Virus record (IMG/VR): IMGVR_UViG_3300004463_000262
Coordinates: 1-64,000 of that record
Direction: 5' to 3' (one strand)
From: a virus
DNA: 64,000 bases
Within the stretch, counting starts at the first letter, position 1, and each line of letters starts with the position of its first letter. Both the position numbers and the translations under genes were made by a program. This document shows positions 8,640 through 27,416 of the stretch, one piece after another. Below the pieces are notes generated by a model, which saw nothing but the letters and a program-made list of their open reading frames with translations, had not been told where the DNA came from and did not search any database.

Positions 8640-8668
8640 TTGACATCCTCCTAGGAGTTTGCTATCAT
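8640..8668 (+). promoter_or_regulatory. Sigma70-type promoter of infA
   Basis: TTGACA-17 nt-TATCAT with TG extension. Confidence 0.75.
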
Positions 8669-8699
8669 ACTCTGTGTTGAGTAACTATTGGAGGTTTGT

Positions 8700-8915
8700 T
8701 TGGCTACAGATAGGTTAGAGTTCGAAGGTGAGGTTACCGAGTCACTACCGGGTACCGTATTCCGCGTTAAGCTGGATGAGGGAGTGGAAGTGGTGGCGAC
8801 GATCTCTGGTAAGATGAGGAAGAACTATATCCGAATTCTTCCGGGTGATCGCGTAAAGGTGGAATTATCGCAATACGATCTCACTAAGGGCCGTGTGACT
8901 TATCGTTACCGTTAG
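8700..8915 (+). CDS. infA: Translation initiation factor IF-1
   Basis: [18 protein letters not shown]...[35 protein letters not shown]; GGAGG RBS and TTG start. Confidence 0.95.
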
Positions 8916-8921
8916 GCACGG

Positions 8922-9194
8922 ATGAAATTTATCGATATAACAGGTGAAAGATTCGGTCGCTTGACAGTGATCGAGCAAAATGGTAAACTTGGTGATCAGA
9001 TCGCTTGGAGATGTAAATGCGATTGCGGGAATTTTACCACAGTAAGATCGTCCTCGCTTCGTACTGGTAAGACAACATCTTGTGGTTGTTTCGCCAAGGA
9101 CATTAGAAGTTTGTATGGTGCGATGAAGTATGGTAAAACGAATGTTCATCCTAATTCGATGGCCGCAAAGAAATTAAGGCTTCGGACACTATAA
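8922..9194 (+). CDS. N-terminal domain of an AP2/HNH-type phage endonuclease (apparently truncated)
   Basis: DITGERFGRLTV...WRCKCDCGN...LRTGKTTSCGC; no nuclease domain follows. Confidence 0.65.
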   Translation: MKFIDITGERFGRLTVIEQNGKLGDQIAWRCKCDCGNFTTVRSSSLRTGKTTSCGCFAKDIRSLYGAMKYGKTNVHPNSMAAKKLRLRTL

Positions 9195-9228
9195 AATGTT
9201 CGAGTTGAAGAACTAATCTATACAAGAC

Positions 9229-9257
9229 TTGACAAGTCCTGAGAAGTTTGTTACACT
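9229..9257 (+). promoter_or_regulatory. Sigma70-type promoter at the start of the tRNA array
   Basis: TTGACA-17 nt-TACACT. Confidence 0.75.
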
Positions 9258-9263
9258 AGATAA

Positions 9264-9335
9264 GTCCCTGTAGTTCAGCGGAAGAACAACGGTCTTCTAA
9301 ACCGTATGTCGGGAGTTCGATTCTCTCCAGGGATG
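9264..9335 (+). tRNA. tRNA-Arg(TCT)
   Basis: GTCCCTG/CAGGGAT acceptor; ACGGT-CT TCT AA-ACCGT; TTCGA T-loop. Confidence 0.9.
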
Positions 9336-9394
9336 CTAGAAGGTAAAGGCGGTTCGACTCCGTTGTAAGATTTCGGTAAACCCCTTCGAGTCAC

Positions 9395-9423
9395 TTGACA
9401 GAAAGATCGTCAGGTGGTATGAT
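9395..9423 (+). promoter_or_regulatory. Sigma70-type promoter
   Basis: TTGACA-17 nt-TATGAT with TG extension. Confidence 0.75.
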
Positions 9424-9623
9424 GTACAAGTACGACAAGTAAGGCCAGCGCGGGAACTGGTATCCCGTGTGATCTTAGGGGATGGGACTTGAGGATACCT
9501 CAAAGAAGCCCTCTAAGTGATCGGAGTCAGAACCAAGCCTTTGGGGCAAGGGGGAGACGAGCCTTCACTTTACAATAGGGAAACCTATTGTCGAGAATTG
9601 GTTGTAATAACGCTATGCCATGT

Positions 9624-9697
9624 TTGAATGTAGCTCAGTCAGGGAGAGTGCGCGGCTGCAAACCGCGAGGTCGCAGGTTCAAATCCTGTCGTTCGAT
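9624..9697 (+). tRNA. tRNA-Cys(GCA), atypical body
   Basis: TTGAATG/CGTTCGA acceptor with wobbles; CGCGG-CT GCA AA-CCGCG. Confidence 0.75.
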
Positions 9698-9840
9698 TGG
9701 GAGACTCATAATCTTCTAGTTGCGTTCGAAGCAATGACACCGGGAACGTCTTAATCTCTACACTAAATAGGGATGATTAGCGAGGTCTGGTCGAGTGGTT
9801 GATCGTAGGTATTGCGTGATTAGAGCCAAGGCTCATAAAT

Positions 9841-9914
9841 GGGGATATAGTGCTAATTTGGGAACACGCTAGGTTTGCACCCTGGTATTCCGGGTTCGAG
9901 TCCCGGTGTCTCCA
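9841..9914 (+). tRNA. tRNA-Ala(TGC)
   Basis: GGGGATA/TGTCTCC with G3:U70; CTAGG-TT TGC AC-CCTGG. Confidence 0.9.
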
Positions 9915-10240
9915 CTAGCAGAAAGTACGGTAACGGCAGCCAGTCGGTTAGTGTGCGTGGCCGGATCTTGTGTAGAAGTGTCGCTCTCAAATTGTGCTTC
10001 TACTAAGCGGACTAACATTCTTTCTGCTTAAATCCGCAACTGCTGTGCCGGTCACCCCGGCGAAGAGGGGATAGTCCCTGTCCGGCAGTTGCGATAATGG
10101 TTGCGGTTTGGCCACCGTCGTGTCCGGCGATTAGTACATAGGAGCCGTCCTACGAAAATGGATCGGGGCAATGTACAAATATTGATCCCCTCACAGAGAT
10201 TACCAGCGGTGATGGTTGGGGGCAAGAAAGATCTCATCAT

Positions 10241-10313
10241 AGGCGAGTAGCTCAGAGGGACGAGCGTCCGGTTTACACCCGGAAGGTCGTGGGTTCGACC
10301 CCCACCTTGCCTA
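10241..10313 (+). tRNA. tRNA-Val(TAC)
   Basis: AGGCGAG/CTTGCCT; TCCGG-TT TAC AC-CCGGA. Confidence 0.9.
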
Positions 10314-10581
10314 CTACGGTAAGCCCAACCTCCCACGTCAGGGTGAGGGCCGGATTTCGTCCCTAGCGGCGAGTTAGGGGTTGCGTGCCGGTATAGTATC
10401 TAGGAGTGACGCCTTAGAGTTGTTGGGTAACCGATTTTGCTCCACCCTCCACGGGTAGTGGCTCGACTATAAGCGAGAGACTTATGGCGTAGCGTTGGAT
10501 ACGAGAATCCAATATCGAAGCGGGGGTGGGAGATGATCTTCATTCGCGCAGTTCGATTCGGGAGGGCTTAGCCCTCCCCAT

Positions 10582-10663
10582 GCCCTCTTGGTGGAATTGG
10601 TTTACACGGCAGCCTTAGAAGCTGTGCCCGCAAGGGTTGCGAGTTCGAGTCTCGCAGAGGGTA
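10582..10663 (+). tRNA. tRNA-Leu(TAG)
   Basis: GCCCTCT/AGAGGGT; GCAGC-CT TAG AA-GCTGT; long variable arm. Confidence 0.9.
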
Positions 10664-10792
10664 CTTTGAGACAACCGGGGCGAATGAGCCTAAGGTAGGC
10701 GTATGCCGAGGCGCGACTTATACTGCGAGCAGGATTCTAATATCCTGCCCCTAAGTTGTCTCAATTATCGTACTGTTAATGTGTAGGATGCA

Positions 10793-11077
10793 ATGGCACT
10801 TTCATACGGAGATAACTTCTATGACAGCGGCCCTTACGGAGGGTTTTATCTACCTATGGCAACAGAGTCGGTAGTACAGCAACGCGGAGTAGAGTATACT
10901 GATACGGCTGATATCCCGAGATGGGCTATCCAGTCGTCTGGTGCTTCACCCGCTTATCCTGCACAGACACGAACCTACACCGTTCAAACCAGGAATTGGG
11001 ATCAGATTGCCGATCCTAGTGGCGCTGGCTTTCAAGCTACGCTTGCCTCCTGGACACGAACCGAACTACACAATTAA
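10793..11077 (+). CDS. Hypothetical, possibly virion protein
   Basis: AGGA RBS; adjacent to 11087 gene. Confidence 0.55.
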   Translation: MALSYGDNFYDSGPYGGFYLPMATESVVQQRGVEYTDTADIPRWAIQSSGASPAYPAQTRTYTVQTRNWDQIADPSGAGFQATLASWTRTELHN

Positions 11078-11086
11078 GAGGTTTCA

Positions 11087-11707
11087 ATGGCTGGTAAGAG
11101 AAAGTTTGACGACAAAGCAACGTGGCGCAATGATCAGTGGGGAATTGATCAGGATCAGCCTGCACGTGCAGAGAAGATTTTTGATCCTGCTGACACTGTG
11201 ACTGATGATCCTACTGCCGGTGGTATTGGTGGAGGTACATCCTTCTCTAGAAGTCCGGTTCAGATGACTGGTACGATGTATACCGGCCTGAATGATAATC
11301 CTACCGCAATGGTGGATCAAGCGTATCGTCTTGGTGACACGCTTCTAGGAAACACCTACGCCTCTCTAACAACTGATTTAACCGGTGATGACAATGATCT
11401 TGTTTTCACTGCTAATGCTAGAGGCTCAGGTGGCAATGCGATCACCGTAGAGTATGTTGATCCGGCTGACACAGATCAGTCATTAGACGTGAGTGTTACA
11501 GATCTTGCTATCGTGGTAAGTCTTGCTACGGATAGTGGTGGTATCATTACTACTGTGGCTGATGATATTTCTGCTGCGATTGGTTTGGACACAGAGGCGA
11601 ATGCTCTTGTCTCTGTAGAAGATGCTGCTAGCAATGATGGTTCTGGCCTCGTTACAGCGATGGATGAGACGAATTTGTCTGGTGGATCTGACGCTCATTA
11701 CGCATAA
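11087..11707 (+). CDS. Acidic virion-like protein resembling tail-sheath-associated domains
   Basis: LVFTANARGSGGNAITVEY...TNLSGGSD motifs; GAGGT RBS. Confidence 0.55.
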   Translation: MAGKRKFDDKATWRNDQWGIDQDQPARAEKIFDPADTVTDDPTAGGIGGGTSFSRSPVQMTGTMYTGLNDNPTAMVDQAYRLGDTLLGNTYASLTTDLTGDDNDLVFTANARGSGGNAITVEYVDPADTDQSLDVSVTDLAIVVSLATDSGGIITTVADDISAAIGLDTEANALVSVEDAASNDGSGLVTAMDETNLSGGSDAHYA

Positions 11708-11711
11708 ATAC

Positions 11712-11740
11712 TTGACATAGCCCTCCCTTTTTGATATAAT
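11712..11740 (+). promoter_or_regulatory. Sigma70-type promoter
   Basis: TTGACA-17 nt-TATAAT perfect consensus. Confidence 0.85.
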
Positions 11741-11776
11741 ACCTGTACAAGGTAATCAAGGAAAGGATTAGGGATC

Positions 11777-12127
11777 ATGGCACTTACAGCAGCGGAGCGC
11801 GAAACGGTCATCAGCATCAGCGACGATGAGAACGAGTGGACGATCCATACGTCTCAGCGCAAGATGGTCACGCAGCTTCTCAAGAATCCGTCCGCGACGA
11901 TCCTGGAGGATACGACTTTCCAGGGTACGCGCATGCTGGTCGCGACGGTTCCTGCCAACGGTATTACCGTCCGCAAGGGCAAGGGTACGCCTCGTAAGGT
12001 AGCTGGTCGTGCCCCTCGTAACATCGATGCCCCGACGTGCGGCGGTGTCAAGTCTGATGGTAGTAAGTGTGGTATGGTCGCCAAGAACGGTAGTGGGTTT
12101 TGCCGTCACCATCAGGATCAGAAGTAA
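11777..12127 (+). CDS. Hypothetical protein with C-terminal Cys/His zinc finger
   Basis: CGGVKSDGSKC...FCRHHQ; has its own promoter and RBS. Confidence 0.7.
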   Translation: MALTAAERETVISISDDENEWTIHTSQRKMVTQLLKNPSATILEDTTFQGTRMLVATVPANGITVRKGKGTPRKVAGRAPRNIDAPTCGGVKSDGSKCGMVAKNGSGFCRHHQDQK

Positions 12128-12233
12128 TCACGTTTCTCTGGAGAGGGCACCGTTCGGTCATATCCTCCAACAATTAAGGGGGTGTGGTTAGTAGCAGGAA
12201 GAGGGAGCGGTGCCCTCGCAGGGGAACATTTTA

Positions 12234-12307
12234 GGCTCCATAGCTTAGTTTGGTAGAGCAGGGGACTCTTAATCCCAAGGTCGAAGGTTCGAATCCTTCT
12301 GGGGTCA
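12234..12307 (+). tRNA. tRNA-Lys(CTT)
   Basis: GGCTCCA/TGGGGTC; GGGA-CT CTT AA-TCCC. Confidence 0.9.
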
Positions 12308-12421
12308 TAGGCGGTGCTATCGTTGTTGGTAATCATTCCATTGCCCTCGAAGCCGGGGACTTCTGTGATAGCAATTCTAGATCCGCAGGCTTCCTTATTT
12401 GTAAACAATCAAGGGGATGTT

Positions 12422-12790
12422 TTGAAGTTAATCATCGCAAGTATCTGTGTCTTAATGACACTCTTACTCCCGGATGTATCGAACGCAAACATCGCAACAA
12501 CAAAGAAAGCAATCATCTGGGCATTTTGTGGTCACTCATACAAGCCGTGTTGGTTAGGACGAGAGGCCATCAAGGTATCGGACTGTGAAACAGGCGGTAC
12601 CTTTTCTATTTGGGCAGGCGTTGGTAAGCATGACTATTGGGGTCTTTTCCAAATGGGATCATCAGAAAGAGAGACATGGGGATACGGCAATGATCCCTGG
12701 GAACAGGCACGTTCAGCCTATCGCATGTATATGGCGACTCGTTACGAGGATCGTTCTGATAGATGGAGTCGTTGGGATTGCAAGCCTTAA
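12422..12790 (+). CDS. Secreted lysozyme-fold transglycosylase (SLT/Rpf-like)
   Basis: Signal-peptide-like N-terminus after AAGGGG RBS (TTG start); CETGG catalytic Glu, GLFQM, EQARSAY, WSRWDC motifs. Confidence 0.7.
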   Translation: MKLIIASICVLMTLLLPDVSNANIATTKKAIIWAFCGHSYKPCWLGREAIKVSDCETGGTFSIWAGVGKHDYWGLFQMGSSERETWGYGNDPWEQARSAYRMYMATRYEDRSDRWSRWDCKP

Positions 12791-12873
12791 GTCGATATGC
12801 TGGAATCTGGTAGACAGGCACGGTTGAGAGCCGTGTGCAGTAATGCGTCCGAGTTCGACTCTCGGTATCGACA
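12791..12873 (+). tRNA. tRNA-Leu(GAG)
   Basis: GTCGATA/TATCGAC; CACGG-TT GAG AG-CCGTG; long variable arm. Confidence 0.9.
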
Positions 12874-12928
12874 TGTTTGACCACCTATAAAGGCAACATC
12901 TCATCCTAAATAGGTAGGTGATATACAT

Positions 12929-13045
12929 ATGAGTGCAGCAGTTTTCATTGTACTAGTACTATTACTAGCTCTATTACTTGGAGTTGGAGTCAATTTCTGG
13001 TTCTTCTTGCTTCTTCTGCTCCTACTCCTGCTGTTCTTCCTTTAA
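12929..13045 (+). CDS. 38-aa uncharged, almost wholly hydrophobic membrane peptide
   Basis: Translated by hand: MSAAVFIVLVLLLALLLGVGVNFWFFLLLLLLLLLFFL; AGGTAGGTG RBS. Confidence 0.6.
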   Translation: MSAAVFIVLVLLLALLLGVGVNFWFFLLLLLLLLLFFL

Positions 13046-13075
13046 GAACAGTTCGATCCTCTGTGGAGGCGCGAT

Positions 13076-13097
13076 GACAGTCGGGAAAGACCGGCAC
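13076..13097 (+). repeat. 22-nt hairpin element repeated exactly at 17511-17532 (inside tmRNA)
   Basis: GACAGTCGGGAAAGACCGGCAC occurs twice. Confidence 0.9.
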
Positions 13098-13132
13098 CCC
13101 GTATAAGCCCGAGGGTACATATCGGGCACCAT

Positions 13133-13204
13133 TCCACTGTAGCTCAGCGGTAGAGCGGTTGGTTGAAGCCCAGCGCGTCGGCGGTTCGATTCCGTCCGGT
13201 GGAA
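13133..13204 (+). tRNA. tRNA-Phe(GAA)
   Basis: TCCACTG/CGGTGGA; GTTGG-TT GAA GC-CCAGC. Confidence 0.9.
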
Positions 13205-13289
13205 CCTAGAGCGAGAGGTTACAACCCTAGGATGCTTAGGGGACGACAGTCGTTGAGCATCAAACGTTCTGTTAATATGCTTGCTCTTA

Positions 13290-13534
13290 TTTTTGTAGTC
13301 AAAGACCCTTGGAAACTCGTGCTGGAGACTTTTCTCTTATCAGGGATTGCATACGAGGCAGAGCAAAGTTCAAGGCGAGACGAAATGGGCGCCGAAGCGC
13401 CCAGATTTTGTAATCGAAGACCCTAGAAACTCTTTGGTTCTTGTGGAGAGAGAGTTTAGTCTCAGTGAAGCATCCTAAGGAGCAAGTCTAGGCGAGATGA
13501 AATTGCGGTCAAACAGTATACTATCGGCCGCAAG
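13290..13534 (+). ncRNA. Two tandem homologous kink-turn RNA modules (L10-leader/KT-42-like)
   Basis: GTC-AAA-GAC-CCTTGGA...TTCAAGG-CGA-GAC and ATC-GAA-GAC-CCTAGA...TCTAGG-CGA-GAT, with covarying stems, each followed by a hairpin. Confidence 0.6.
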
Positions 13535-13541
13535 ATTTTAC

Positions 13542-13616
13542 GTCCCGTTGGTCTAGTTGGTTTAGGACGCGGCCCTCTCACGGCTGAGGTCATCGGTTCG
13601 AATCCGATACGGGATA
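13542..13616 (+). tRNA. tRNA-Glu(CTC)
   Basis: GTCCCGT/ACGGGAT; CGGCC-CT CTC AC-GGCTG. Confidence 0.9.
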
Positions 13617-13618
13617 CT

Positions 13619-13943
13619 ATGGCTTACAAAGATCCAGAAAAACAGAAAGTTGCTCAACGTGAATGGTATGAGCGGAATGATATTTGCAGAAAGCGACGTG
13701 AACGTAAGAAAAGCATCCAGCGATTCTTACGTGCAGTTAAAGTAACTGCTGGGTGTCGAGATTGTGGATATGATGCGCATGCAGTGGCATTAGACTTTGA
13801 TCATCGAGATGATGAAGAGAAGAAGTTCTTTTCGATCTTCTGAATTAGGTGCTCATGGTTGGAAAGCTATTGTCGAAGAAGTCATGAAATGCGATGTTCG
13901 ATGCGCAAATTGTCATCGCGTTAGACATTCCGATGTCGTCTAA
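13619..13943 (+). pseudogene. Frameshifted HNH endonuclease
   Basis: CRDCG...LDFDH ORF stops at 13843; the +1 frame continues KCDVRCANCHRVRH to TAA 13941-43 inside tRNA-Asn. Confidence 0.8.
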
Positions 13944-13999
13944 TGGTAAGGCGCGTGGCTGTTAACCACGCTATCAAGGTTCGAATCCTTGCGTCGGAG
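13929..13999 (+). tRNA. tRNA-Asn(GTT)
   Basis: TCCGATG/CGTCGGA; CGTGG-CT GTT AA-CCACG. Confidence 0.9.
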
Positions 14000-14534: not shown

Positions 14535-14537
14535 TAT

Positions 14538-21862: not shown

Positions 21863-22080
21863 TAGTCATAGCCCTGCACGCCACGAGGGGTAGATAGTGA
21901 GTCTGGTCGGACTCCCGTTTGAGGGTAGATACAGGCTTTAAACAGTTAGGTACCATCGCGAGTAACGGCTTTCGTTCTATGACTCAGGAGAGGGATTGCA
22001 GAGGCACGGTATATGCCCCTTCTAGGACTTCACCGTGAGTAATACGCCTGGGTTTGGCGCAAGACAGATTCAGGCTCCAT

Positions 22081-22154
22081 ATCAGAGTCGTCTAATGGTC
22101 AAGGACTTCAGACTTTCAATCTGAACAATGCGGGTTCGACTCCCGTCTCTGATA
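22081..22154 (+). tRNA. tRNA-Glu(TTC)
   Basis: ATCAGAG/CTCTGAT; TCAGA-CT TTC AA-TCTGA. Confidence 0.9.
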
Positions 22155-22157
22155 CTA

Positions 22158-22231
22158 CAGGAGTTAGCATAATTGGTTAATGCCCCAGACTGTGAATCTG
22201 GACGATTTGGGTTCGAATCCCCTGCTCCTGA
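22158..22231 (+). tRNA. tRNA with His (GTG) anticodon, atypical
   Basis: CCAGA-CT GTG AA-TCTGG; acceptor CAGGAGT/GCTCCTG A73, no G-1:C73; weak T stem. Confidence 0.65.
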
Positions 22232-22234
22232 TAC

Positions 22235-22309
22235 CCTTTGGTAGCTCAATGGCAGAGCACTGCGCTGTAAGGAACGCAGAGGTTGCGAGTTCGATTCTCG
22301 TCCTTAGGT
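22235..22309 (+). tRNA. tRNA-like gene with a 10-nt anticodon loop
   Basis: Canonical D and T arms; CTGCG-CTGTAAGGAA-CGCAG; acceptor has two U-U mismatches. Confidence 0.6.
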
Positions 22310-22313
22310 CTTC

Positions 22314-22385
22314 GCCGAAATAGCTCAGCGGTAGAGCACCTGTTTTGTAAGCAGGGTGTCCAGAGTTCGATTCTCTGTTTCGGCT
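22314..22385 (+). tRNA. tRNA-Thr(TGT)
   Basis: GCCGAAA/TTTCGGC; CCTGT-TT TGT AA-GCAGG. Confidence 0.9.
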
Positions 22386-22489
22386 TACGCCAGTGGATCA
22401 AGTAGATAGCACGAAGCCTTATCTTCGAGTAGATCCTCCTAAGAATAATCAGTCCAGTAAAATACGTTGGGCTAAAGATTACGAGCTTC

Positions 22490-22562
22490 GCCTGCTTGGT
22501 GCTAACGGATAGCATACTGCTTTGGTATAGCAGGGGAGACAGTTCGATTCTGTCAGTGGGCT
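22490..22562 (+). tRNA. tRNA-Thr(GGT)
   Basis: GCCTGCT/AGTGGGC; CTGCT-TT GGT AT-AGCAG. Confidence 0.85.
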
Positions 22563-22564
22563 TA

Positions 22565-22600
22565 TGGAAGGGGTCTTGGGTTCGAATCCCAAAGTTAGCT
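22565..22600 (+). pseudogene. 3' half remnant of a tRNA (Thr-like)
   Basis: GGAAGGGGTC-TTGGG-TTCGAAT-CCCAA-AGTTAGCT with no 5' half. Confidence 0.55.
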
Positions 22601-22681
22601 TTGCGCTTATCAGACGTAGCAGACGCCGCACGGATAGCGTAACCGTGTCCTGATCGTGGGTCAGGTTATCTCCCACGCCAC

Positions 22682-22753
22682 GCTAATCAGGTGTTTCAGG
22701 TGGCACACGTCTTTCGTAAGGACGGAGACAGAGTTCGATTCTCTGGATTAGCT
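22682..22753 (+). tRNA. tRNA-Thr(CGT)
   Basis: GCTAATC/GATTAGC; CGTCT-TT CGT AA-GGACG. Confidence 0.85.
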
Positions 22754-22756
22754 TAC

Positions 22757-22829
22757 AGACTCATAGCTCAGATGGGAGAGCGCTTCCTTGACGTGGAAGA
22801 GGTCACAGGTTCGATCCCTGTTGGGTCTA
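22757..22829 (+). tRNA. tRNA-Val(GAC)
   Basis: AGACTCA/TGGGTCT; CTTCC-TT GAC GT-GGAAG. Confidence 0.9.
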
Positions 22830-22912
22830 TTGGGTAAGACTACAGAGCCGTGTGCAGCACGGTAAGGCAGCTAGCACTTGTCTTCCCACCATTTTATGGT
22901 ATACTGTACTCA

Positions 22913-23170
22913 ATGTGTGAGAAGAGAGAGAAGTTGATCAAGGAGATTGCCGAGGCAATCAAGCAGGCCGACCTTGAGATGGAACGTCGTCAAGATCTGT
23001 TCCATCAAGATTGGGATTGGCAGTTTGAGCAGAGAGCCGAAGCCGCATTACGTGTAATCGAGCGCAAGGCTGACGTAACTCAAGATAGGATTCTTCCTTG
23101 CACTTGTGGTCATAATGGATATGGAGCACATAAAGAAGGGTGCGCGTTATATGAACAAAGCAGACTATGA
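22913..23170 (+). CDS. Hypothetical protein with CTCGH...H...C motif
   Basis: TG-G-TATACT 7 nt upstream of the ATG (leaderless-type). Confidence 0.6.
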   Translation: MCEKREKLIKEIAEAIKQADLEMERRQDLFHQDWDWQFEQRAEAALRVIERKADVTQDRILPCTCGHNGYGAHKEGCALYEQSRL

Positions 23171-23528
23171 ATATAAAGCCGGTTATGCTTGTGGTTTTTG
23201 GGCCGACGAATTGATCGAAGCGAAAAGGAGAGGATATTCTTCTTTTCATTATAATCCTGATACTCTTCGGGGAGATCCTAAGTTTGAAATGGGTCGTGCA
23301 GATGGCATCGGGGATCGTGAACTAGTTGATGTAGAAAATGATGACTCCTTTTTCTTCGCTTTTGATCAGAGCGGTTTTCCGTGGGGGAGCCATATAGAAC
23401 AGGAGTTCAAAAGGCGAGGATATGAGTTTGAATACCTAGATATTTACGGCAAAGTCATCAAAGAACGTCCCGCTCCTATAAAATCCTTATTGCAGTCTTA
23501 TCGTCTCGTCAAACCAAAGCAGGTATAG
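23151..23528 (+). CDS. RMF-like family hypothetical protein
   Basis: YKAGYACG...FEMGRADGIGD motif. Confidence 0.55.
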   Translation: MNKADYEYKAGYACGFWADELIEAKRRGYSSFHYNPDTLRGDPKFEMGRADGIGDRELVDVENDDSFFFAFDQSGFPWGSHIEQEFKRRGYEFEYLDIYGKVIKERPAPIKSLLQSYRLVKPKQV

Positions 23529-23612
23529 TGGCGGCAATCGTATTTCCGCAAACCTCGTATATTACCTCCGGGGCACGTAGGGATCAGGGAAGTGGGTTGA
23601 CCTACAAACTAA

Positions 23613-23686
23613 GCAATAGTAGCTCAGACTGGTAGAGCGTCACCTTGCCAAGGTGAAAGTCGAGGGTTCGAGTCCTTCTTTGTCTG
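23613..23686 (+). pseudogene. tRNA-Gly(GCC) with disrupted 3' acceptor strand
   Basis: Intact D arm, TCACC-TT GCC AA-GGTGA and T arm, but GCAATAG has no complement (TTTGTCT follows). Confidence 0.75.
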
Positions 23687-23711
23687 GGACTCCTACCTCG
23701 TAATAACTGAG

Positions 23712-24077
23712 ATGGCATACAAAGACAAAGAGAAGCAGAGAGAAGCATCCCTCGCCTCTTATCATCGTAGAAGAAAGAGTGATATAGAGAGAATGAGGCT
23801 CGTTAAGAATGAAGCAAAGAAGCGTAGGCGCAAAGAGAATTCTGAGTACGTCAACGCTCTGAAAGCGCAACCTTGTGTGGATTGTGGGAATTGTTATCTA
23901 CCATGTGTGATGGATTTTGATCATGTTCGTGGTGAGAAAACTAAGAACATCGCTTTCATGTTAATCAACGATACTTCTCTCGAAAAAATTAAAGAGGAAA
24001 TTGAGAAGTGCGAATTGGTATGCTCAAATTGTCATCGAATTCGCACGCATCAGCGCAGATATAGTGCCAATGGTTAG
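23712..24077 (+). CDS. HNH endonuclease
   Basis: MAYKDKEKQ...CVDCG...MDFDH...KCELVCSNCHRIR; stop in the D loop of tRNA-Gly(GCC). Confidence 0.85.
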   Translation: MAYKDKEKQREASLASYHRRRKSDIERMRLVKNEAKKRRRKENSEYVNALKAQPCVDCGNCYLPCVMDFDHVRGEKTKNIAFMLINDTSLEKIKEEIEKCELVCSNCHRIRTHQRRYSANG

Positions 24078-24127
24078 CATACCAGATTGCCATTCTGGTG
24101 GTACGAGTTCGAATCTCGTTATCTGCT
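24055..24127 (+). tRNA. tRNA-Gly(GCC)
   Basis: GCAGATA/TATCTGC U73; CCAGA-TT GCC AT-TCTGG. Confidence 0.9.
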
Positions 24128-24225
24128 TGAAGACTATTGATAGAGACTAGAAACTCTAGGGTGCAAGTCCCTGGCTCTCCCATAGCTCTGTGTAGGTTAT
24201 GGGTACACAGTGATAGTCTTCTCCA

Positions 24226-24298
24226 GCACCTATGATGTTAATGGTTAGCATCTCAGACTTCCAATCTGATCGTGTCGGTTCGAGTCCGACTAGGTGCT
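24226..24298 (+). tRNA. tRNA-Gly(TCC)
   Basis: GCACCTA/TAGGTGC; TCAGA-CT TCC AA-TCTGA. Confidence 0.9.
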
Positions 24299-24304
24299 CT
24301 GAAC

Positions 24305-24377
24305 GTCCTAGTAGCTCAGTGGATAGAGTGCCACCCTGCGAAGGTGGAAGTCGTTGGTTCGAGTCCAACTTAGGACG
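24305..24377 (+). tRNA. tRNA-Arg(GCG)
   Basis: GTCCTAG/TTAGGAC; CCACC-CT GCG AA-GGTGG. Confidence 0.9.
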
Positions 24378-24381
24378 CTAG

Positions 24382-24791
24382 AACAGGGACATACGCAGCA
24401 CCCGTTGATCCATGCGTCGTGGGTAACTCCCCGGCCGAAAATTGGGCGTCTTCACGGCGCAGAGATGAGCGGGTGTTGAGGAACTTCAGGACTACTGAAC
24501 CGCGTGGTGCCAAGAGAGCGCGGGGAGCGTTTAGACGATGAGGGAGATGGCCGGTTAGCCGGTAATGCCCGTAATGATGTGTAGGGCTGATAGCGTGAGC
24601 GGGAGCCATCGCGTACCTCTAAGCGGACGATATGTAGCGATTCCAAGTTCGTCCTGAGCACACAGGACAAGGTAGGGAGCAGCCACTTTATCGAGACGGG
24701 TGGCCATTGGTCGAAAGCCCTTCAACGGACGTGAGGGTAGAGGGCTGAAAACCCCACGCTGACCAGTGAGATAGATGTATGTCATCTTGTT
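24382..24791 (+). ncRNA. ~410-nt large ornate ncRNA (possibly ROOL/GOLLD class)
   Basis: Terminal stem AACAGG-GACATAC/GTATGTC-AT-CTTGTT encloses many helices; exactly fills the gap between a tRNA and the next promoter. Confidence 0.65.
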
Positions 24792-24793
24792 AC

Positions 24794-24822
24794 TTGACAA
24801 GACACAGAATCCTGGGTATACT
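24794..24822 (+). promoter_or_regulatory. Sigma70-type promoter
   Basis: TTGACA-17 nt-TATACT. Confidence 0.75.
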
Positions 24823-24837
24823 GTTCTAGATACACAA

Positions 24838-24910
24838 ACCTCCGTAGCTCAGCGGTCAGAGCGCTGGCCTCATAAGCCAGATGTCGTCGGTTCGAATCCA
24901 ACCGGAGGGA
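24838..24910 (+). tRNA. tRNA with CAT anticodon (elongator Met or Ile2)
   Basis: CTGGC-CT CAT AA-GCCAG; CCTCCG/CGGAGG acceptor with 1-72 mismatch. Confidence 0.8.
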
Positions 24911-24912
24911 AT

Positions 24913-25131
24913 ATGAATCAAATTGATAAGAACAAAGTCGTAGAGGTTCCGCTTAGTTCTAAGTACCTTACTCATGATGGATTGTATATGGCAGGCTATC
25001 ATTGGGGTCGGCATATTAGAAGTCCAGAAAGCGCCCCTAGTGGTGCGCCGGTAGCCTTTCTTCAAGGTGTTCGGGATGGATATGGAGACGGCTTGGAAGA
25101 AATCCGAGAAAGGATGAGATCAGGAACATGA
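24913..25131 (+). CDS. RMF-like family hypothetical protein
   Basis: YMAGYHWG...FLQGVRDGYGD; SD GGAGGG supplied by the tRNA 3' end. Confidence 0.6.
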   Translation: MNQIDKNKVVEVPLSSKYLTHDGLYMAGYHWGRHIRSPESAPSGAPVAFLQGVRDGYGDGLEEIRERMRSGT

Positions 25132-25331
25132 AGAAGATAGATCAGAAAGCCGAAAAGGCTGAGCGTAACAAGATCTACGCGCTCAAGTTCAAGAAGAAGG
25201 AAAAGGAGAAGAAGGGCAAGCGCGAGGTTTCTCGTTTCGCCAATTGGTGCAGAACCGAGGGTCATGATCCTAGTTGTAGTTGCGCCTATCCTTCTCGCGA
25301 AGAAGTCATTGAGGCTTCACGCAGAAAGTAA
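25128..25331 (+). CDS. Small Lys-rich protein
   Basis: ATGA overlap with the upstream gene; C/H cluster at the C-terminus. Confidence 0.6.
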   Translation: MKKIDQKAEKAERNKIYALKFKKKEKEKKGKREVSRFANWCRTEGHDPSCSCAYPSREEVIEASRRK

Positions 25332-25404
25332 TTCCCTGTAGCTCAGTGGAAAGAGCATCTGTTTCCTAAACAGAGTGTCGGAGGTTCGATTCCTCTCAGG
25401 GAAG
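25332..25404 (+). tRNA. tRNA-Arg(CCT)
   Basis: TTCCCTG/CAGGGAA; TCTGT-TT CCT AA-ACAGA. Confidence 0.9.
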
Positions 25405-25405
25405 T

Positions 25406-25651
25406 ATGAAAAGAAAGCTTAAGTGTGGTACTTGTGGTACCACCAAAAATAAAGCAACAGGCAAAACGCTCTACATGTTTGGTGACTCGCCTGCATCTAT
25501 GATGATCCTCCCTGATTCTATCGAGTGTTGGGATTGTGGTGAGGCTCGTCGTGAGGCAGAAGAAAAGAAAAAGCAGGAGCGCAACAAGAGCCTGGTTGAT
25601 AAGTTCGCTGTCGAAAGCGATAAACTAGCACGCGGAGTAGAGCACTGGTAG
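25406..25651 (+). CDS. Small zinc-ribbon protein
   Basis: CGTC...CWDC; stop lies inside the next tRNA. Confidence 0.6.
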   Translation: MKRKLKCGTCGTTKNKATGKTLYMFGDSPASMMILPDSIECWDCGEARREAEEKKKQERNKSLVDKFAVESDKLARGVEHW

Positions 25652-25702
25652 CTCGTCAGCCTCATAAGCTGAAGGTAGCTGGTTCAATTCCAGCCTCCGC
25701 TA
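25631..25702 (+). tRNA. Initiator-like tRNA-fMet(CAT)
   Basis: CGCGGAG/CTCCGCT with C1xU72 mismatch and A11-U24-type D stem; TCAGC-CT CAT AA-GCTGA. Confidence 0.85.
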
Positions 25703-25721
25703 TAGAGTAAAGTGAAGGTTC

Positions 25722-25754
25722 AAGCCCGTGGCGTTCTTGCGCCACGGGCTTTTT
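25722..25754 (+). terminator. Intrinsic terminator ending the tRNA array
   Basis: AAGCCCGTGGCG-TTCTTG-CGCCACGGGCTT hairpin ending in a T run. Confidence 0.8.
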
Positions 25755-25771
25755 CGTGCTATAATAAACTG

Positions 25772-26053
25772 ATGGAGCTACATCATAGGAAAGCTAGAGA
25801 GATCTGGCGGGAGATGAGACTAGAGAATGGTATAGATCCTGATTCAGTCACTTCTAGTGATCCAGGACACCCCAAGTGGTCTACAATTAAGTACATCGGG
25901 GGATATTATCATGGTTTAGTGGGTCTTTATATTCCCCCTGATCGTCGTAACGATTCTAATAATGCCAAGGGAACTTTTGGCACGACTGAGGATGAGTGGG
26001 ATATGGGTTATTGGGACGCTCAAGGAGATTTAGAAAATGGCAAATATAACTAA
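25772..26053 (+). CDS. RMF-like family hypothetical protein
   Basis: YIGGYYHGLVG...WDMGYWDAQGD; TG-C-TATAAT just upstream. Confidence 0.6.
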   Translation: MELHHRKAREIWREMRLENGIDPDSVTSSDPGHPKWSTIKYIGGYYHGLVGLYIPPDRRNDSNNAKGTFGTTEDEWDMGYWDAQGDLENGKYN

Positions 26054-27416
26054 GGATTTGAAGGTTTTTAGCCCGCAGGGTGTGGGTATTGATCAGGGCG
26101 CGGTTGAGCAGATTGAACGCTGCCTAGAGCATCCTAACGCCGTTGCCGGTGCATTGATGGCTGACCATCATCTAGGCTATTCTATGCCTATTGGTGGTGT
26201 TGTCGCCTACGAGGATGCTATTTCTCCTACAGGAGTAGGATTCGATATCGCCTGTGGGAACATGGCGGTCAAGACTGATCTGAATATCTCTAGTTTCGGT
26301 TCTGAGTCTGCCAAGAGTGGGGACATCGTTCCTAATCCTAAGGTATTCAAGGGACTGATGCGTGAAATCCAGCGCCAGGTATCTTTCGGTATTGGTCGTT
26401 CTAACGCGAATCCTATTGATCATCCTCTCTTCGACAATCCTGTTTGGGTTGAGATTGATAACCAGTTTGGTCGTGAGCTAGAGGCTAAGGCTCGCAACCA
26501 GTTGGGTACCGTGGGTTCTGGTAATCACTATGTGGATATTCTCGTTGACGAGAAGGGTGCTCTCTGGATTGCTAACCACTTTGGCTCTCGTGGTCTAGGT
26601 CATACTATCGCTTCTGGCTTTATGGCTGCTGCCGCTGGTAGGAAGTTCACGGATCGCGTTCCTGAGTCCGAGGATGCAGTAGTTCTTACTAAGAATGACC
26701 CTCTAATCTACGAGTTCTACATCGAGGCTATGCAGCTAGCTGGCGAGTACGCTTATGCTGGTCGTGAGTACGTCATCGATCAGGTTCTTAAGATCCTCGG
26801 TGCTGAAGCTGTTTGGTCAGTCCACAATCATCACAACTACGCTTGGCTGGAAGATGGCAAGTGGGTAGTTCGCAAGGGTGCCACTCCGCTAACGAATTCT
26901 CCTGCATTTATTGGAGGTTCTATGGGTGATATCTCCGTGATTGTTCGTGGTCGAACGGCTGGTGGCGAAATGTTGCGCTGGACTCGCACGGAAGATGTTG
27001 GCGCATTGGGTTCTGCGCCTCATGGTGCTGGTCGTATCATGAGCCGCACAAAGGCCGCTGGTAAGTTACGCAAGATGTGGGTATGTCCTAATCGTAACTG
27101 TGGTAAGTTTGAGGAAAGAGCAGTAGCAAATACGCCTGCTTCTGCTGGTTCTCGCTGCCCGGATTGCAACATCGTTTTGCGCAAGGTTCGCAAGCGCGAT
27201 ACCTCTGATGCTGCTATCGATTGGACTGCAACCCGTCAGGATCTAAAGGATCGTGGGATCATTGTTCTGGGTGCTGGTGCTGATGAGGCACCGGGAGTCT
27301 ATAAGCCTCTCGCTGAGGTTATCGAAGCACATCCTAACATCGAAATCCTACATACTCTTCGTCCGCTTGGTGTGGTAATGGCAGGTGCGGATGAATTTGA
27401 CCCTTATGCTGATTGA
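26037..27416 (+). CDS. rtcB: RNA ligase RtcB with zinc-ribbon insertion
   Basis: DHHLGY, GVGFDIACG, GTVGSGNHY, HFGSRGLG, HNHHNYA, RKGAT, GSMG, HGAGR and DEAPGVYK motifs. Confidence 0.93.
   Translation: MANITKDLKVFSPQGVGIDQGAVEQIERCLEHPNAVAGALMADHHLGYSMPIGGVVAYEDAISPTGVGFDIACGNMAVKTDLNISSFGSESAKSGDIVPNPKVFKGLMREIQRQVSFGIGRSNANPIDHPLFDNPVWVEIDNQFGRELEAKARNQLGTVGSGNHYVDILVDEKGALWIANHFGSRGLGHTIASGFMAAAAGRKFTDRVPESEDAVVLTKNDPLIYEFYIEAMQLAGEYAYAGREYVIDQVLKILGAEAVWSVHNHHNYAWLEDGKWVVRKGATPLTNSPAFIGGSMGDISVIVRGRTAGGEMLRWTRTEDVGALGSAPHGAGRIMSRTKAAGKLRKMWVCPNRNCGKFEERAVANTPASAGSRCPDCNIVLRKVRKRDTSDAAIDWTATRQDLKDRGIIVLGAGADEAPGVYKPLAEVIEAHPNIEILHTLRPLGVVMAGADEFDPYAD

What the first reader, a model, noticed from the sequence alone, without database searches (positions are those of the whole stretch)
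8640..27416. Phage 'ribosome parts and mimics' island: IF-1, uS12, rRNA-site mimics, full tRNA set, tmRNA and RNA repair
Seen: one co-directional ~19 kb block carries infA, rpsL, about 45 tRNA-like genes, tmRNA, RtcB, a 23S L11-site copy, L10-site-like kink-turns, several RMF-like ORFs and many unexplained structured RNAs. Known: IF-1 and uS12 are direct neighbours at the 30S A site; L10 and L11 form the stalk base where translational GTPases and RelA act. Inference: this goes beyond a tRNA array and may be a coordinated system that remodels the decoding centre and decoys stalk-base ligands during infection.
Basis: partly seen in the sequence, partly recalled or inferred. Interest (0 to 1): 0.92.

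Follow-up and report, generated by a model that had tools for sequence, protein, structure and literature searches.

The report
Phage tRNA island with rRNA mimic
A large soil phage carries a one-directional block of translation parts (46 tRNAs, tmRNA, IF-1, a variant ribosomal protein S12, an RNA ligase) and a conserved small RNA that copies the ribosome's L11-binding site, which also sits unannotated in many cultured giant phages.

Summary
The window is a phage record of about 160 kb estimated full size. Positions 8688-27416 hold, all on the + strand, infA, rpsL, RtcB, a tmRNA and 46 tRNA-like genes covering all 20 amino acids.

The claimed 23S L11-site copy is real and is the main result. 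At 19762-19989 lies a non-coding RNA. It has the helix 42-44 three-way junction of 23S rRNA, with a roughly 160-nt structured insert in helix 44.

The same design occurs in 16 other IMG/VR phage records and in cultured jumbo phages, including GAP32, CBB, XbC2, ME3 and Astolliot. It is unannotated there and usually lies next to tRNA genes. Helices covary, and so does the recalled 1072/1092-1099 tertiary triple. An insert-free version sits in cyanobacterial genomes, sometimes inside tRNA arrays.

The phage S12 belongs to a distinct clade with Pro at the streptomycin-site lysine K87.

Not confirmed: RMF-like ORFs (no Pfam hit) and L10-site identity of the kink-turn-like repeats.

The "coordinated system" reading is not supported. 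infA occurs in 0 of 19 related records. S12 occurs in 1 of 16 mimic-bearing phages. RtcB is absent from the closest complete relative.

Earlier scan notes exist only for this same window.

The parts
8688..8915 (+). infA, translation initiation factor IF-1 (75 aa)
   Evidence: PF01176, E 2e-25, 88.6 bits. Aligns over residues 7-75 to solved IF-1 chains, E 3e-24. No infA in 19 other virus records.
9229..9257 (+). Sigma-70-like promoter just upstream of the first tRNA
   Evidence: The TTGACA-N16-18-TAYAMT pattern gives 7 matches in the window, all on the + strand, against 0.13 expected by chance. Four lie in the block: 9229, 11712, 19988 and 24794. This is a consensus match only.
9264..25702 (+). 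tRNA array: 46 tRNA-like genes for all 20 amino acids, interleaved with small ORFs and HNH endonuclease genes
   Evidence: ARAGORN finds 44 tRNAs. Rfam finds 43, including two extra ones. The gene order is shared with L002/G001.
13290..13534 (+).
   Evidence: Unit 2 aligns with a single copy in L002. MFE z -1.8. No Rfam hit at E<=5. Identity unresolved.
14156..14242 (+). Conserved non-coding block
   Evidence: 82% identical to L002 5267-5352. No tRNA or Rfam call.
15677..16009 (+). HNH-type homing endonuclease-like ORF, one of a family
   Evidence: A 65-nt C-terminal repeat family has 5 copies, at 13855, 14369, 15912, 19472 and 23974. 19207-19659 gives a weak PF01844 hit, E 0.005. tblastn hits among these ORFs and in L002.
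16261..16779 (+). Sigma-70 region-2-containing ORF (172 aa)
   Evidence: PF04542, E 3e-7, above the cut-off. Conserved in L002, 41% identity.
17333..17640 (+). tmRNA
   Evidence: RF00023, 114.4 bits. ARAGORN reads a tag peptide. No SmpB in G000 or G001.
17847..18239 (+). rpsL, ribosomal protein uS12 (130 aa), with Pro in place of the K87 lysine and a 6-aa C-terminal insert
   Evidence: PF00164, E 6e-32. Alignment to solved S12 chains shows a P where the bacterial RVKDLPG motif has its K. The 20 closest homologues all have Pro there. The clade is monophyletic, support 100/96.
19762..19989 (+). GAC-mimic RNA. Closing stem 19762-19769 with 19982-19989. Helix 43 and junction 19769-19804. Structured insert 19805-19964. 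Helix 44 hairpin 19965-19982.
   Evidence: Rfam LSU local hit. 15-sequence alignment A1. 95.8% of cells paired against 73.3% in shuffles, 11 pairs with changes on both sides. Triple covariation in 15 of 15 rows. RNAalifold recovers the core on its own.
20000..20236 (+). Small basic ORF (78 aa) with its own promoter at 19988
   Evidence: 56% identical to an ORF in L002. No Pfam family at E<=10. It lies on the other side of the mimic RNA in L002.
20691..20866 (+). Conserved block, non-coding or a very small ORF
   Evidence: 74% identical to L002 12328-12478, with a 24-nt indel and runs of 20-30 identical bases. No Rfam hit.
22235..22310 (+). tRNA-like gene with an enlarged anticodon loop
   Evidence: ARAGORN reads a 4-base anticodon. 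Rfam tRNA 50.8 bits. A homologue in L002 is called tRNA-His(atg).
26037..27416 (+). RtcB RNA ligase (459 aa)
   Evidence: PF01139, E 1e-56. Absent from the 100%-complete relative G001.

Best explanation
WHAT THE BLOCK IS
The block is the translation-support island of a myovirus-like phage of about 160 kb. It is a multi-promoter, one-directional tRNA array with tmRNA and homing HNH endonucleases. This array has picked up separate cargo modules: IF-1, a variant uS12, an RtcB ligase and a non-coding RNA that copies the 23S rRNA GTPase-associated centre (helices 42-44).

WHAT IS SHOWN
- All these parts are intact.
- The tRNA order, tmRNA, rpsL and the mimic RNA are shared with one diverged complete phage.
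- The mimic RNA is a conserved, covarying family found in many large phages.

WHAT IS INFERRED
- The tRNAs, tmRNA and RtcB keep translation running when host tRNAs are limiting or are cut by defence nucleases.
- IF-1 and S12 enter host 30S subunits.
- The mimic RNA is cut out of the tRNA transcript and folds on its own into the L11-binding tertiary structure. It then acts in trans as a binding site for host uL11, or for a ligand of the uL11-RNA cleft. I put about 0.45 on this last step.
- The modules are independently gained and lost. They are not one obligate machine.
For: THE RECORD IS A PHAGE
- Helicase, RNR, DnaB, primase, DNA polymerase, terminase and portal flank the block.
- It is an IMG/VR record of 72,439 b, about 45% complete.
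- The portal is 38-41% identical to those of roughly 135-155-kb actinophage myoviruses.

THE ASSEMBLY IS NOT A CHIMERA
- The complete 158-kb relative G001 has the same tRNA order, tmRNA, rpsL and mimic RNA.
- Contigs of two runs from separate studies cover all 30 bins at 100% identity.

THE PARTS

THE MIMIC RNA
- 16 further IMG/VR records carry it.
- 20 tested pairs are 95.8% paired against 73.3% +/- 2.0 in shuffles (0 of 500 shuffles reach this). Slid controls give 31-59%.
- Position 1072 follows pair 1092-1099 in 15 of 15 rows.
- RNAalifold finds the core and four insert helices on its own, with 33 of 50 pairs showing compensatory changes.
- Cultured phages carry it unannotated.
- A tRNA lies within 5 kb in 12 of 16 IMG/VR loci, and within 60 nt in 6 of them and in the window.
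- No phage L11 gene occurs in 16 records, so any L11 partner would be the host's.

MODULARITY
- infA in 0 of 19 records.
- S12 in 1 of 16 records.
- RtcB absent from G001.

LITERATURE
- tRNAs plus RtcB as an answer to tRNA-cutting defence: passages of PMC7824862.
- IF1, tmRNA and ribosomal proteins in huge phages: passages of PMC7162821.
Against: - No expression data exist. No RNA run holds the stretch.
- Binding of the RNA to uL11 could not be tested.
- A1067 is G in 3 of 15 family members. Cultured-phage copies vary at otherwise conserved core positions. Not every ligand contact of the rRNA site is therefore kept.
- Thermodynamic folding of the window copy is no better than shuffles, z -0.64.
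- uS12 is not one of the loosely bound, exchangeable proteins that Mizuno et al. found enriched in viruses (passages, PMC6375957). How it would enter host ribosomes is unclear.
- The host is unknown.
Confidence: 0.7

Rival explanations
1. IF-1, uS12 and the rRNA-site mimics form one co-evolved system. Together they remodel the 30S A site and decoy stalk-base ligands during infection.
For: All three lie in one co-directional block with shared promoters. S12 is altered at a decoding-site residue. The mimic RNA is under selection. rpsL and the mimic RNA are both kept in G001.
Against: infA occurs in 0 of 19 other records, including G001. S12 occurs in 1 of 16 mimic-bearing records. Three other large viral records with S12 (L019, L020, L024) have no mimic match in the stretches held and at most one tRNA nearby. 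No RMF-like ORFs were found.
Confidence: 0.1
2. The mimic RNA does not act through uL11. Either its rRNA-like fold is a self-folding chassis that presents the insert domain, which would be the functional part, or it is a decoy for an enzyme, antibiotic or toxin that attacks the ribosomal GTPase centre. Thiopeptide-type compounds in soil are one example.
For: The insert is itself structured and covaries: four helices, with 33 of 50 pairs compensatory overall. It holds strongly conserved motifs. A1095 is invariant, and A1067 is kept in 12 of 15 members. The window comes from rhizosphere samples. Cyanobacterial tRNA arrays are induced by translation inhibitors (abstract, PMC8421152).
Against: Cyanobacterial copies lack the insert yet keep the core, so the core carries a function on its own. 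A1067 is G in 3 of 15 members. By recalled knowledge this would weaken thiostrepton-type binding. I know of no toxin that targets this site (recalled; not searched).
Confidence: 0.25
3. The phage IF-1 and S12 serve mainly as RNA chaperones for the many structured RNAs of the island, not as ribosome parts.
For: Both are small OB-fold RNA binders. RNA-chaperone activity of E. coli S12 and IF1 is recalled from the literature; I did not see those papers here. The block is unusually rich in structured RNA.
Against: Both proteins keep full-length, high-scoring similarity to the ribosomal forms. This includes the PNSA loop and the D88 context in S12. The S12 clade stays 60-67% identical to bacterial S12, which fits continued ribosome binding.
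Confidence: 0.12
4. Artefact. The ribosomal genes and the 23S-like piece are host DNA joined to phage DNA by misassembly, or a decaying relic of captured rRNA.
For: Bacterial S12 and 23S fragments do contaminate 'phage' records.
Against: rpsL is not followed by rpsG or fusA and sits between tRNAs and phage ORFs. The same layout occurs in G001. The Rfam LSU match covers only about 50 nt, with no other rRNA nearby. Covariation across 13 distinct sequences rules out a decaying relic. Contigs from a second study are identical.
Confidence: 0.02

Closest known systems
23S rRNA GTPase-associated centre (helices 42-44, the uL11/thiostrepton site)
   Same: Closing stem, helix 43 with its loop, the junction and the helix 44 hairpin are all kept. 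The column-14/column-391 pair and the column-44 A match the G1055=C1104/A1085 junction triple named in PMC1919483 (passage). The 1072 with 1092-1099 covariation is present.
   Different: It is not part of an rRNA gene. A 114-311-nt structured insert enters the 5' strand of helix 44. C rather than U stands at 1065 in all 15 aligned members. It is encoded by phages next to tRNAs.
Ribosomal-protein leaders that mimic rRNA sites (for example L10_leader, RF00557)
   Same: An RNA outside the ribosome copies an rRNA protein-binding site of the stalk base.
   Different: No Rfam leader model matches at E<=5. Downstream genes differ between loci and are not ribosomal. Some copies have their own promoter (L010). 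No L11 gene occurs in 16 carrier records. It therefore looks trans-acting, not a cis regulator.
Translation gene sets of huge phages (Al-Shayeb et al. 2020, PMC7162821) and tRNA+tmRNA arrays of ~155-kb myoviruses
   Same: Many tRNAs, tmRNA, IF1 and ribosomal proteins carried by large phages (passages). The portal is related to cluster-C-like mycobacteriophages. That these carry tRNAs and a tmRNA is recalled.
   Different: The passages list S4, S1, S21 and L7/L12, not S12. No rRNA mimic is mentioned ('rRNA' occurs 0 times in the main text). Supplements were closed and may list more.
Virus-encoded ribosomal proteins (Mizuno et al. 2019, PMC6375957)
   Same: A phage carries a host-type ribosomal protein that stays highly conserved (60-67% identical to bacterial S12), which fits purifying selection.
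   Different: S12/uS12 occurs 0 times in the main text. S12 is a core decoding-site protein, not one of the exchangeable surface proteins stressed there. The phage clade carries Pro at K87.
Cyanobacterial long tRNA arrays (Santamaria-Gomez et al. 2021, PMC8421152)
   Same: Horizontally moving arrays of supernumerary tRNAs with HNH endonucleases (abstract and passages). In 4 of 9 cyanobacterial loci inspected, the insert-free mimic lies among tRNAs, as it also does in L025 and L027.
   Different: That paper does not mention 23S or L11 (0 occurrences). The cyanobacterial copies lack the insert.
GOLLD and ROOL large RNAs near phage tRNA genes
   Same: Large structured non-coding RNAs found beside tRNAs in phages. 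This association is recalled; PMC12286853 was seen only as a search listing.
   Different: No Rfam match to either family in the block at E<=5. This RNA is smaller and is built around an rRNA domain.

Membership tests
23S rRNA GAC domain (as a fold) | Three-way junction closed by a helix-42-like stem | tested here: met
   7 stem pairs, 6 of them with changes on both sides, 90% of cells paired.
23S rRNA GAC domain (as a fold) | Helix 43 hairpin and the U-turn junction with conserved sequence | tested here: met
   cmscan alignment to model positions 1096-1145. 36 invariant columns in A1. Pair 1058-1080 occurs as GC, AU and UA.
23S rRNA GAC domain (as a fold) | Helix 44 hairpin with a six-base loop and A1095 | tested here: met
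   Present in 15 of 15 rows. A1095 is invariant. Pair 1092-1099 occurs as UA, CG and UG.
23S rRNA GAC domain (as a fold) | Tertiary triple: 1072 covaries with 1092-1099 (feature recalled from Conn, Gutell and Draper 1998; paper not seen) | tested here: met
   C with C-G in 6 rows, U with U-A in 8 rows, U with U.G in 1 row, so 15 of 15 consistent. The same rule holds by eye in GAP32, CBB, XbC2 and Astolliot and in 9 cyanobacterial copies.
23S rRNA GAC domain (as a fold) | Helices 43 and 44 contiguous, as in rRNA | tested here: not met
   A 114-311-nt insert separates them in all phage copies. They are contiguous only in the cyanobacterial copies.
23S rRNA GAC domain (as a fold) | Binds uL11 | not testable with these tools
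   No RNA-protein prediction or assay was available.
23S rRNA gene or fragment | Flanked by further 23S sequence | tested here: not met
   The LSU match covers about 50 nt only. Real 23S contigs diverge at 19802/19805.
Ribosomal-protein leader (cis regulator) | Lies in the 5' UTR of a ribosomal-protein gene and matches a leader model | tested here: not met
   Downstream ORFs are unrelated between loci. No leader family at E<=5. No L11 gene in 16 records.
uS12 | Pfam S12/S23 above cut-off, full length, PNSA loop | tested here: met
   110 bits against a cut-off of 22.3. Aligns over residues 1-127 to solved S12 chains. KPNSA is invariant.
uS12 | Lysine K87 in the RVKDLPG motif | tested here: not met
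   Pro in the window, in L002 and in all 20 closest homologues. K or R in the 7 bacterial-type rows of A3.
IF-1 | Pfam eIF-1a/IF-1 above cut-off, full OB fold | tested here: met
   88.6 bits against a cut-off of 30.2. Aligns over residues 7-75 to solved IF-1.
RtcB ligase | Pfam RtcB above cut-off | tested here: met
   193.5 bits against a cut-off of 27. Active-site residues were not examined.
tmRNA | Rfam model above gathering score and a tag reading frame | tested here: met
   114.4 bits. Tag peptide read by ARAGORN. A partner SmpB was not found in G000 or G001.
Ribosome modulation factor (RMF) | Match to the Pfam RMF family | tested here: not met
   No RMF hit in 22 distinct ORFs at E<=0.01, nor in 10 of them at E<=10.
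L10 binding site / kink-turn 42 | Match to L10_leader or to the 23S helix 42 region | tested here: not met
   No such Rfam hit at E<=5 in 8400-27600. Kink-turn geometry itself was not tested.
Long tRNA array | Tens of co-directional tRNA genes with HNH endonucleases | tested here: met
   46 tRNA-like genes on the + strand. Five HNH-like repeats.

The most novel reading that the evidence does not exclude
The GAC-mimic RNA is a general companion of horizontally moving tRNA arrays, in large phages and in cyanobacteria. It works in trans at the ribosomal stalk base. By soaking up host uL11, or a factor that reads the uL11-RNA cleft, it stops the cell from sensing or answering the flood of extra and often uncharged tRNAs, for example through the RelA-dependent stringent response. 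Alternatively, it shields the GTPase centre from an inhibitor. The phage S12 with Pro at K87 would be a second, independent way of retuning the same ribosomes.
Probability: 0.2. Interest if true: 0.93.

Novelty: new variant of a known kind. Interest (0 to 1): 0.8.

Why it matters
A free-standing copy of an rRNA functional centre, kept by selection in phages, would be a new way for viruses to interfere with ribosomes. The ribosome's own RNA site would be used as a trans-acting lure. Covariation here includes a tertiary contact, which is stronger evidence of selection than paired helices alone.

The RNA also sits unannotated in culturable jumbo phages of Cronobacter, Pectobacterium, Serratia, Erwinia, Xanthomonas, Acinetobacter and Pseudomonas. 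The idea can therefore be tested at the bench now.

The RNA's link with tRNA arrays occurs in both phages and cyanobacteria. This gives a handle on the open question of what these arrays need in order to work.

A phage clade of uS12 with a fixed change at a streptomycin and accuracy site adds a core decoding-site protein to the list of virus-borne ribosomal proteins.

Tried and rejected
CHECKS THAT GAVE NOTHING OR WERE BLOCKED
- Rfam at permissive thresholds found no L10 leader, GOLLD, ROOL, Y RNA (YrlA 20.7 bits, E 2.8, only over tRNA 22277-22343) or other family in the block. It found only tRNAs, tmRNA and the LSU piece.
- Thermodynamic folding did not recover the GAC fold of the window copy, z -0.64. 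I set this aside because the fold depends on tertiary contacts.
- tblastn of S12 against cultured-phage records gave 15 records. They look like host contamination or unannotated small records. No cultured phage with this S12 was found.
The contexts of the short-contig S12 homologues P0003-P0019 and P0021 therefore remain unknown. 'Phage-like clade' is shown only for P0001 and P0020. Three short contigs (L058, L060, L061) hold 1-2 tRNAs.

THE METAGENOME SCAN FOR Pro-TYPE S12
- I first took its tRNA-rich loci for phage arrays. Pfam on 10 downstream ORFs from 6 loci showed S7, COX3, ATP synthase A, NADH dehydrogenase subunits and L16 in 9 of 10. These loci are organelle genomes, so I dropped that reading.
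- 8 other loci show a 155-165-aa ORF followed by a 690-700-aa ORF downstream. That is the str-operon pattern. It is judged from ORF sizes only.
- Pro at K87 is therefore not phage-only.

OTHER
- No RNA holder was listed for the stretch, so nothing can be said on expression.
- The PA5oct RNA-seq paper lists four ncRNAs but ties none to rRNA. PA5oct was not among my blastn hits.
- Host tracking of the 1058-1080 pair was considered and dropped. Pseudomonas phage Astolliot has G-C, while the window has U-A.
- Searches for prior description of a phage GAC mimic found nothing relevant. Supplements of all papers were closed and may bear on which ribosomal proteins were seen in phages.

Full report
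WHAT THE WINDOW IS

The window is the first 64,000 b of a 72,439-b IMG/VR virus record that CheckV rates about 45% complete. This implies a genome of roughly 160 kb.

Phage genes lie on both sides of the block. A helicase lies upstream. Downstream lie ribonucleotide reductase, a DnaB-like helicase, primase, DNA polymerase, large terminase and portal. The portal is 38-41% identical to portals of roughly 135-155-kb myoviruses of mycobacteria, Rhodococcus and Gordonia. G+C is 0.45-0.53 throughout, and GC skew is steadily positive from 8 kb onward.

A misassembly is unlikely for two reasons:
- A 158,106-b record rated 100% complete (G001, locus L002) has the same order of tRNA genes, a tmRNA, rpsL, most of the small ORFs and the reductase gene next to the array.
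- Contigs from two runs filed under different studies cover all 30 bins of 7800-27700 without a difference. One of these runs may be the source sample.

THE PARTS

Confirmed parts:
- infA at 8688-8915.
- rpsL at 17847-18239.
- RtcB at 26037-27416.
- tmRNA at 17333-17640.
- 46 tRNA-like genes: 44 by ARAGORN plus two found only by Rfam. All are on the + strand and cover all 20 amino acids.

Also present:
- A sigma-70 region-2 ORF.
- A family of HNH-type endonuclease ORFs and remnants, with five copies of a 65-nt repeat. This is a known feature of tRNA arrays (passage of PMC8421152).

Seven strong sigma-70-like promoter matches lie on the + strand, against 0.13 expected by chance. Four are in the block, at 9229, 11712, 19988 and 24794. 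The block therefore looks like several co-directional transcription units. These are consensus matches only.

THE rRNA MIMIC IN THE WINDOW

Rfam's bacterial LSU model matches 19769-19817 at model positions 1096-1145. blastn finds the same 35-39 nt in all 5,426 E. coli genomes, under 23S genes, at 90-94% identity. When public contigs are laid on the window, real 23S sequences from other organisms pile up here. They leave the window sequence at 19802/19805, where they run straight on into helix 44.

In the window the helix 44 hairpin comes about 160 nt later. The layout is:
- 5' closing strand, 19762-19769.
- Helix 43 and junction, 19769-19804.
- Insert, 19805-19964.
- Helix 44, 19965-19982.
- 3' closing strand, 19982-19989.

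The element starts 38 nt after tRNA-Arg(tcg) and has no promoter match of its own. Its end overlaps the -35 box of the promoter for the next small ORF.

THE MIMIC IS A FAMILY UNDER SELECTION

L002 has the same element, but on the other side of tRNA-Pro(tgg). A pattern scan of IMG/VR found it in 16 further records of 9-371 kb.

I aligned 15 full-length copies, 13 of them distinct. Three loci were left out:
- L003, cut by the locus end.
- L017, where my expression found no helix 44 within 600 nt.
- L004, the same contig as L002.

For 20 pairs that I named from the rRNA model plus a 3-bp helix closing the insert:
- 95.8% of cells pair, against 73.3% +/- 2.0 in shuffles (0 of 500 shuffles reach this).
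- Slid controls give 31-59%.
- 11 pairs change on both sides.

The base at 1072 in the helix 43 loop follows the 1092-1099 pair of helix 44 in all 15 rows: C with C-G in 6, U with U-A in 8, U with U.G in the window. This is the tertiary base triple of the L11-binding domain as I recall it from Conn, Gutell and Draper (1998). I could not find that paper in the library. The invariant G at column 14, C at column 391 and A at column 44 fit the G1055=C1104/A1085 junction triple named in PMC1919483 (passage).

RNAalifold was run on 11 sequences, three of them from cultured phages, without my structure. It returns the same core and four further helices inside the insert, with 33 of 50 pairs showing compensatory changes.

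Against a strict copy of the ribosomal site:
- A1067 is G in 3 of 15 members.
- All 15 have C where the bacterial consensus has U at 1065.
- GAP32, CBB and XbC2 differ at other core positions.

WHERE THE MIMIC OCCURS

blastn against cultured-phage records finds full-length copies in these phages:
- Xanthomonas phage XbC2.
- Erwinia phage Kaldavass.
- Cronobacter phage GAP32.
- Pectobacterium phage CBB.
- Serratia phage BF.
- Six Erwinia pEa_SNUABM phages.
- Pseudomonas phages Astolliot and Milchi.

Two-piece matches to both core halves occur in Yersinia fHe-Yen9-03/04, Acinetobacter ME3, Pseudomonas pf16 and UNO-G1W1, and Aeromonas 4_4572. Matches to the 5' core alone occur in Xanthomonas XaC1 and XacN1. 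I read the sequence itself only for GAP32, CBB, XbC2, ME3 and Astolliot. All these sites are unannotated or called hypothetical. Paenibacillus phage Pd_22F (read) holds a true 23S fragment; I take the similar short core-only matches in several small 'phage' records to be the same kind, but I did not read those.

Association with tRNAs:
- Of the 16 IMG/VR loci, 12 have a tRNA within 5 kb. Six have one within 60 nt, as does the window.
- The four loci without a tRNA hold only 0.6-7.6 kb of flank.
- One copy (L010) has its own strong promoter match just upstream.
- Downstream ORFs differ between loci, so this is not a leader of one gene.
- None of the 16 records encodes L11.

Bacterial genomes:
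- A scan gave 25 loci. 21 are true 23S genes of lineages with C at 1065. Three filamentous cyanobacteria have a stand-alone copy without the insert, and one planctomycete has an odd variant.
- Two of the three cyanobacterial copies lie inside tRNA arrays, with no rRNA nearby.
- In a sample of 301 cyanobacterial genomes, 22 match a 30-nt probe with up to 2 mismatches. 18 of them show the non-rRNA form (20 places) and 4 show their own 23S.
- Of 9 non-rRNA loci fetched, 4 have 3-8 tRNAs within 3 kb.
- All 9 keep U at 1072 with U-A at 1092-1099. The true 23S in the set has C with C-G.

The paper on cyanobacterial long tRNA arrays does not mention 23S or L11 (0 occurrences). It shows that such an array is induced when translation is impaired (abstract).

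S12

The phage S12 aligns over its whole length with solved bacterial uS12 chains and keeps the PNSA loop. It reads P where the bacterial RVKDLPG motif has its K, and it has a 6-aa insert near the C-terminus. L002 has the same Pro, plus changes at two neighbouring sites.

In K. pneumoniae, changes at K42, K87, D88 and P90 give streptomycin resistance or dependence (table passages of PMC4182516).

- The 20 closest homologues in the large protein collection (64-99% identical) all have this Pro. Seven bacterial-type sequences aligned with them have K or R.
- In a tree of 69 rows, the 23 phage-like rows form one group (100/96). This group is nested among Lys-type bacterial S12 and is separated by a supported branch (95/82) from other Pro-type S12. 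I chose the rows for the tree and left most of the 8,000 hits out.
- Those other Pro-type sequences are organelle and bacterial str-operon genes. Pro at this site is therefore a natural variant that arose separately in the phage-like clade.
- Only the window and G001 copies are shown to be on phage DNA.
- Three other large viral records carry S12. Two have Lys and one has Pro, and none has a tRNA array beside it.

DO THE PARTS FORM ONE SYSTEM?

- infA is found in 0 of 19 records searched. These were the 16 mimic carriers plus three S12 carriers, and 8 of them are at least 90% complete. They include G001.
- RtcB is absent from G001.
- S12 is present in 1 of 16 mimic carriers.
- No SmpB accompanies the tmRNA in either phage.

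The shared core of the two related phages is the tRNA array, tmRNA, rpsL, the mimic RNA, the sigma-like ORF and several small ORFs. infA and RtcB are extras of this phage. This pattern fits separately acquired cargo in a hospitable locus. It does not fit one co-evolved machine.

CLAIMS NOT BORNE OUT

- No ORF resembles RMF.
- The two kink-turn-like units at 13290-13534 are real repeats, with one homologue in L002. Nothing ties them to the L10 site.
- Other conserved non-coding blocks exist, at 14156-14242 and 20691-20866, but remain unexplained.

HOW IT MOST LIKELY WORKS

Shown: the parts are intact and conserved, and the mimic keeps the pairings and a tertiary contact of the L11-binding fold.

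Inferred:
- The tRNAs, tmRNA and RtcB sustain translation against codon mismatch and tRNA-cutting defences. This role is set out for jumbo phages in PMC7824862 (passages).
- IF-1 and S12 join host 30S subunits.
- The mimic is released from the tRNA transcript and binds host uL11, or a ligand of the uL11-RNA cleft, in trans.

That the insert-free cyanobacterial form keeps the core argues that the core itself is the active part. The insert must add something phage-specific.

Rivals are a chassis role for the core, a decoy for an inhibitor of the GTPase centre, and a chaperone role for IF-1 and S12.

NOVELTY

Large tRNA sets, tmRNA, IF1, RtcB and some ribosomal proteins in big phages are in print. 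I found no description of a phage-borne GAC mimic in four searches. S12 is not named in the main texts of the two surveys of phage ribosomal proteins I read in passages; their supplements were closed. No Rfam family other than the local LSU hit covers the RNA.

Earlier notes of this scan concern only this same window.

Noticed in passing
L025, L027, L030, L136-L145 (cyanobacterial genomes): A stand-alone, insert-free copy of the 23S helix 42-44 domain with strongly conserved flanks. It occurs in 18 of 301 sampled cyanobacterial genomes and lies inside tRNA arrays in several. It keeps U1072 with U1092-A1099, unlike the organisms' own 23S.
   Followed up: partly
window 22235-22310; L002 14211-14287: A conserved tRNA-like gene with an enlarged anticodon loop of 10-11 nt between the stem strands. 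ARAGORN reads it as a 4-base anticodon in the window and as tRNA-His(atg) in L002.
   Followed up: partly
window 20691-20866; L002 12328-12478: A block conserved at 74%, with runs of 20-30 identical bases and an in-frame 24-nt indel. It overlaps a possible 45-aa ORF, but a stop codon in the window interrupts the longer L002 frame. Whether it is an RNA or a peptide is undecided.
   Followed up: partly
window 14156-14242; L002 5267-5352: An 82%-conserved non-coding stretch with a GAAA-capped hairpin. No tRNA or Rfam call.
   Followed up: no
window 19930-19950 and 13290-13330, 13410-13440: A similar short motif, a purine-rich run followed by GGAAAC, appears both in the insert of the mimic RNA (window and L002) and in the kink-turn-like repeat units. 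It may be a shared module.
   Followed up: no
window 24379-24837: A 459-nt gap without a credible ORF folds better than 99 of 100 shuffles (z -2.78) and ends in a promoter match for tRNA-Met. It has no blastn match in L002.
   Followed up: partly
window 14557-14574, 21558-21587, 22561-22589: T-arm-like sequences lie outside any called tRNA. They suggest further degenerate or unusual tRNA-like genes.
   Followed up: no
L063-L135 (metagenome loci): A protein-pattern scan for Pro-type S12 mostly returned organelle genomes (S7, cox3, atp6, nad genes, rpl16, many tRNAs) and bacterial str operons. This is a caution that tRNA-rich contigs with rpsL need not be phages.
   Followed up: yes
L037 (Planctomycetaceae MAG): An odd variant of the helix 43-like hairpin and junction, followed by an unrelated sequence. 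It was not examined further.
   Followed up: no
'phages' collection hits H1-H15, H42-H60: Several records filed as phages hold bacterial rpsL or 23S sequence, on small contigs or in whole Salmonella assemblies. Hits there need checking before being called phage genes.
   Followed up: partly
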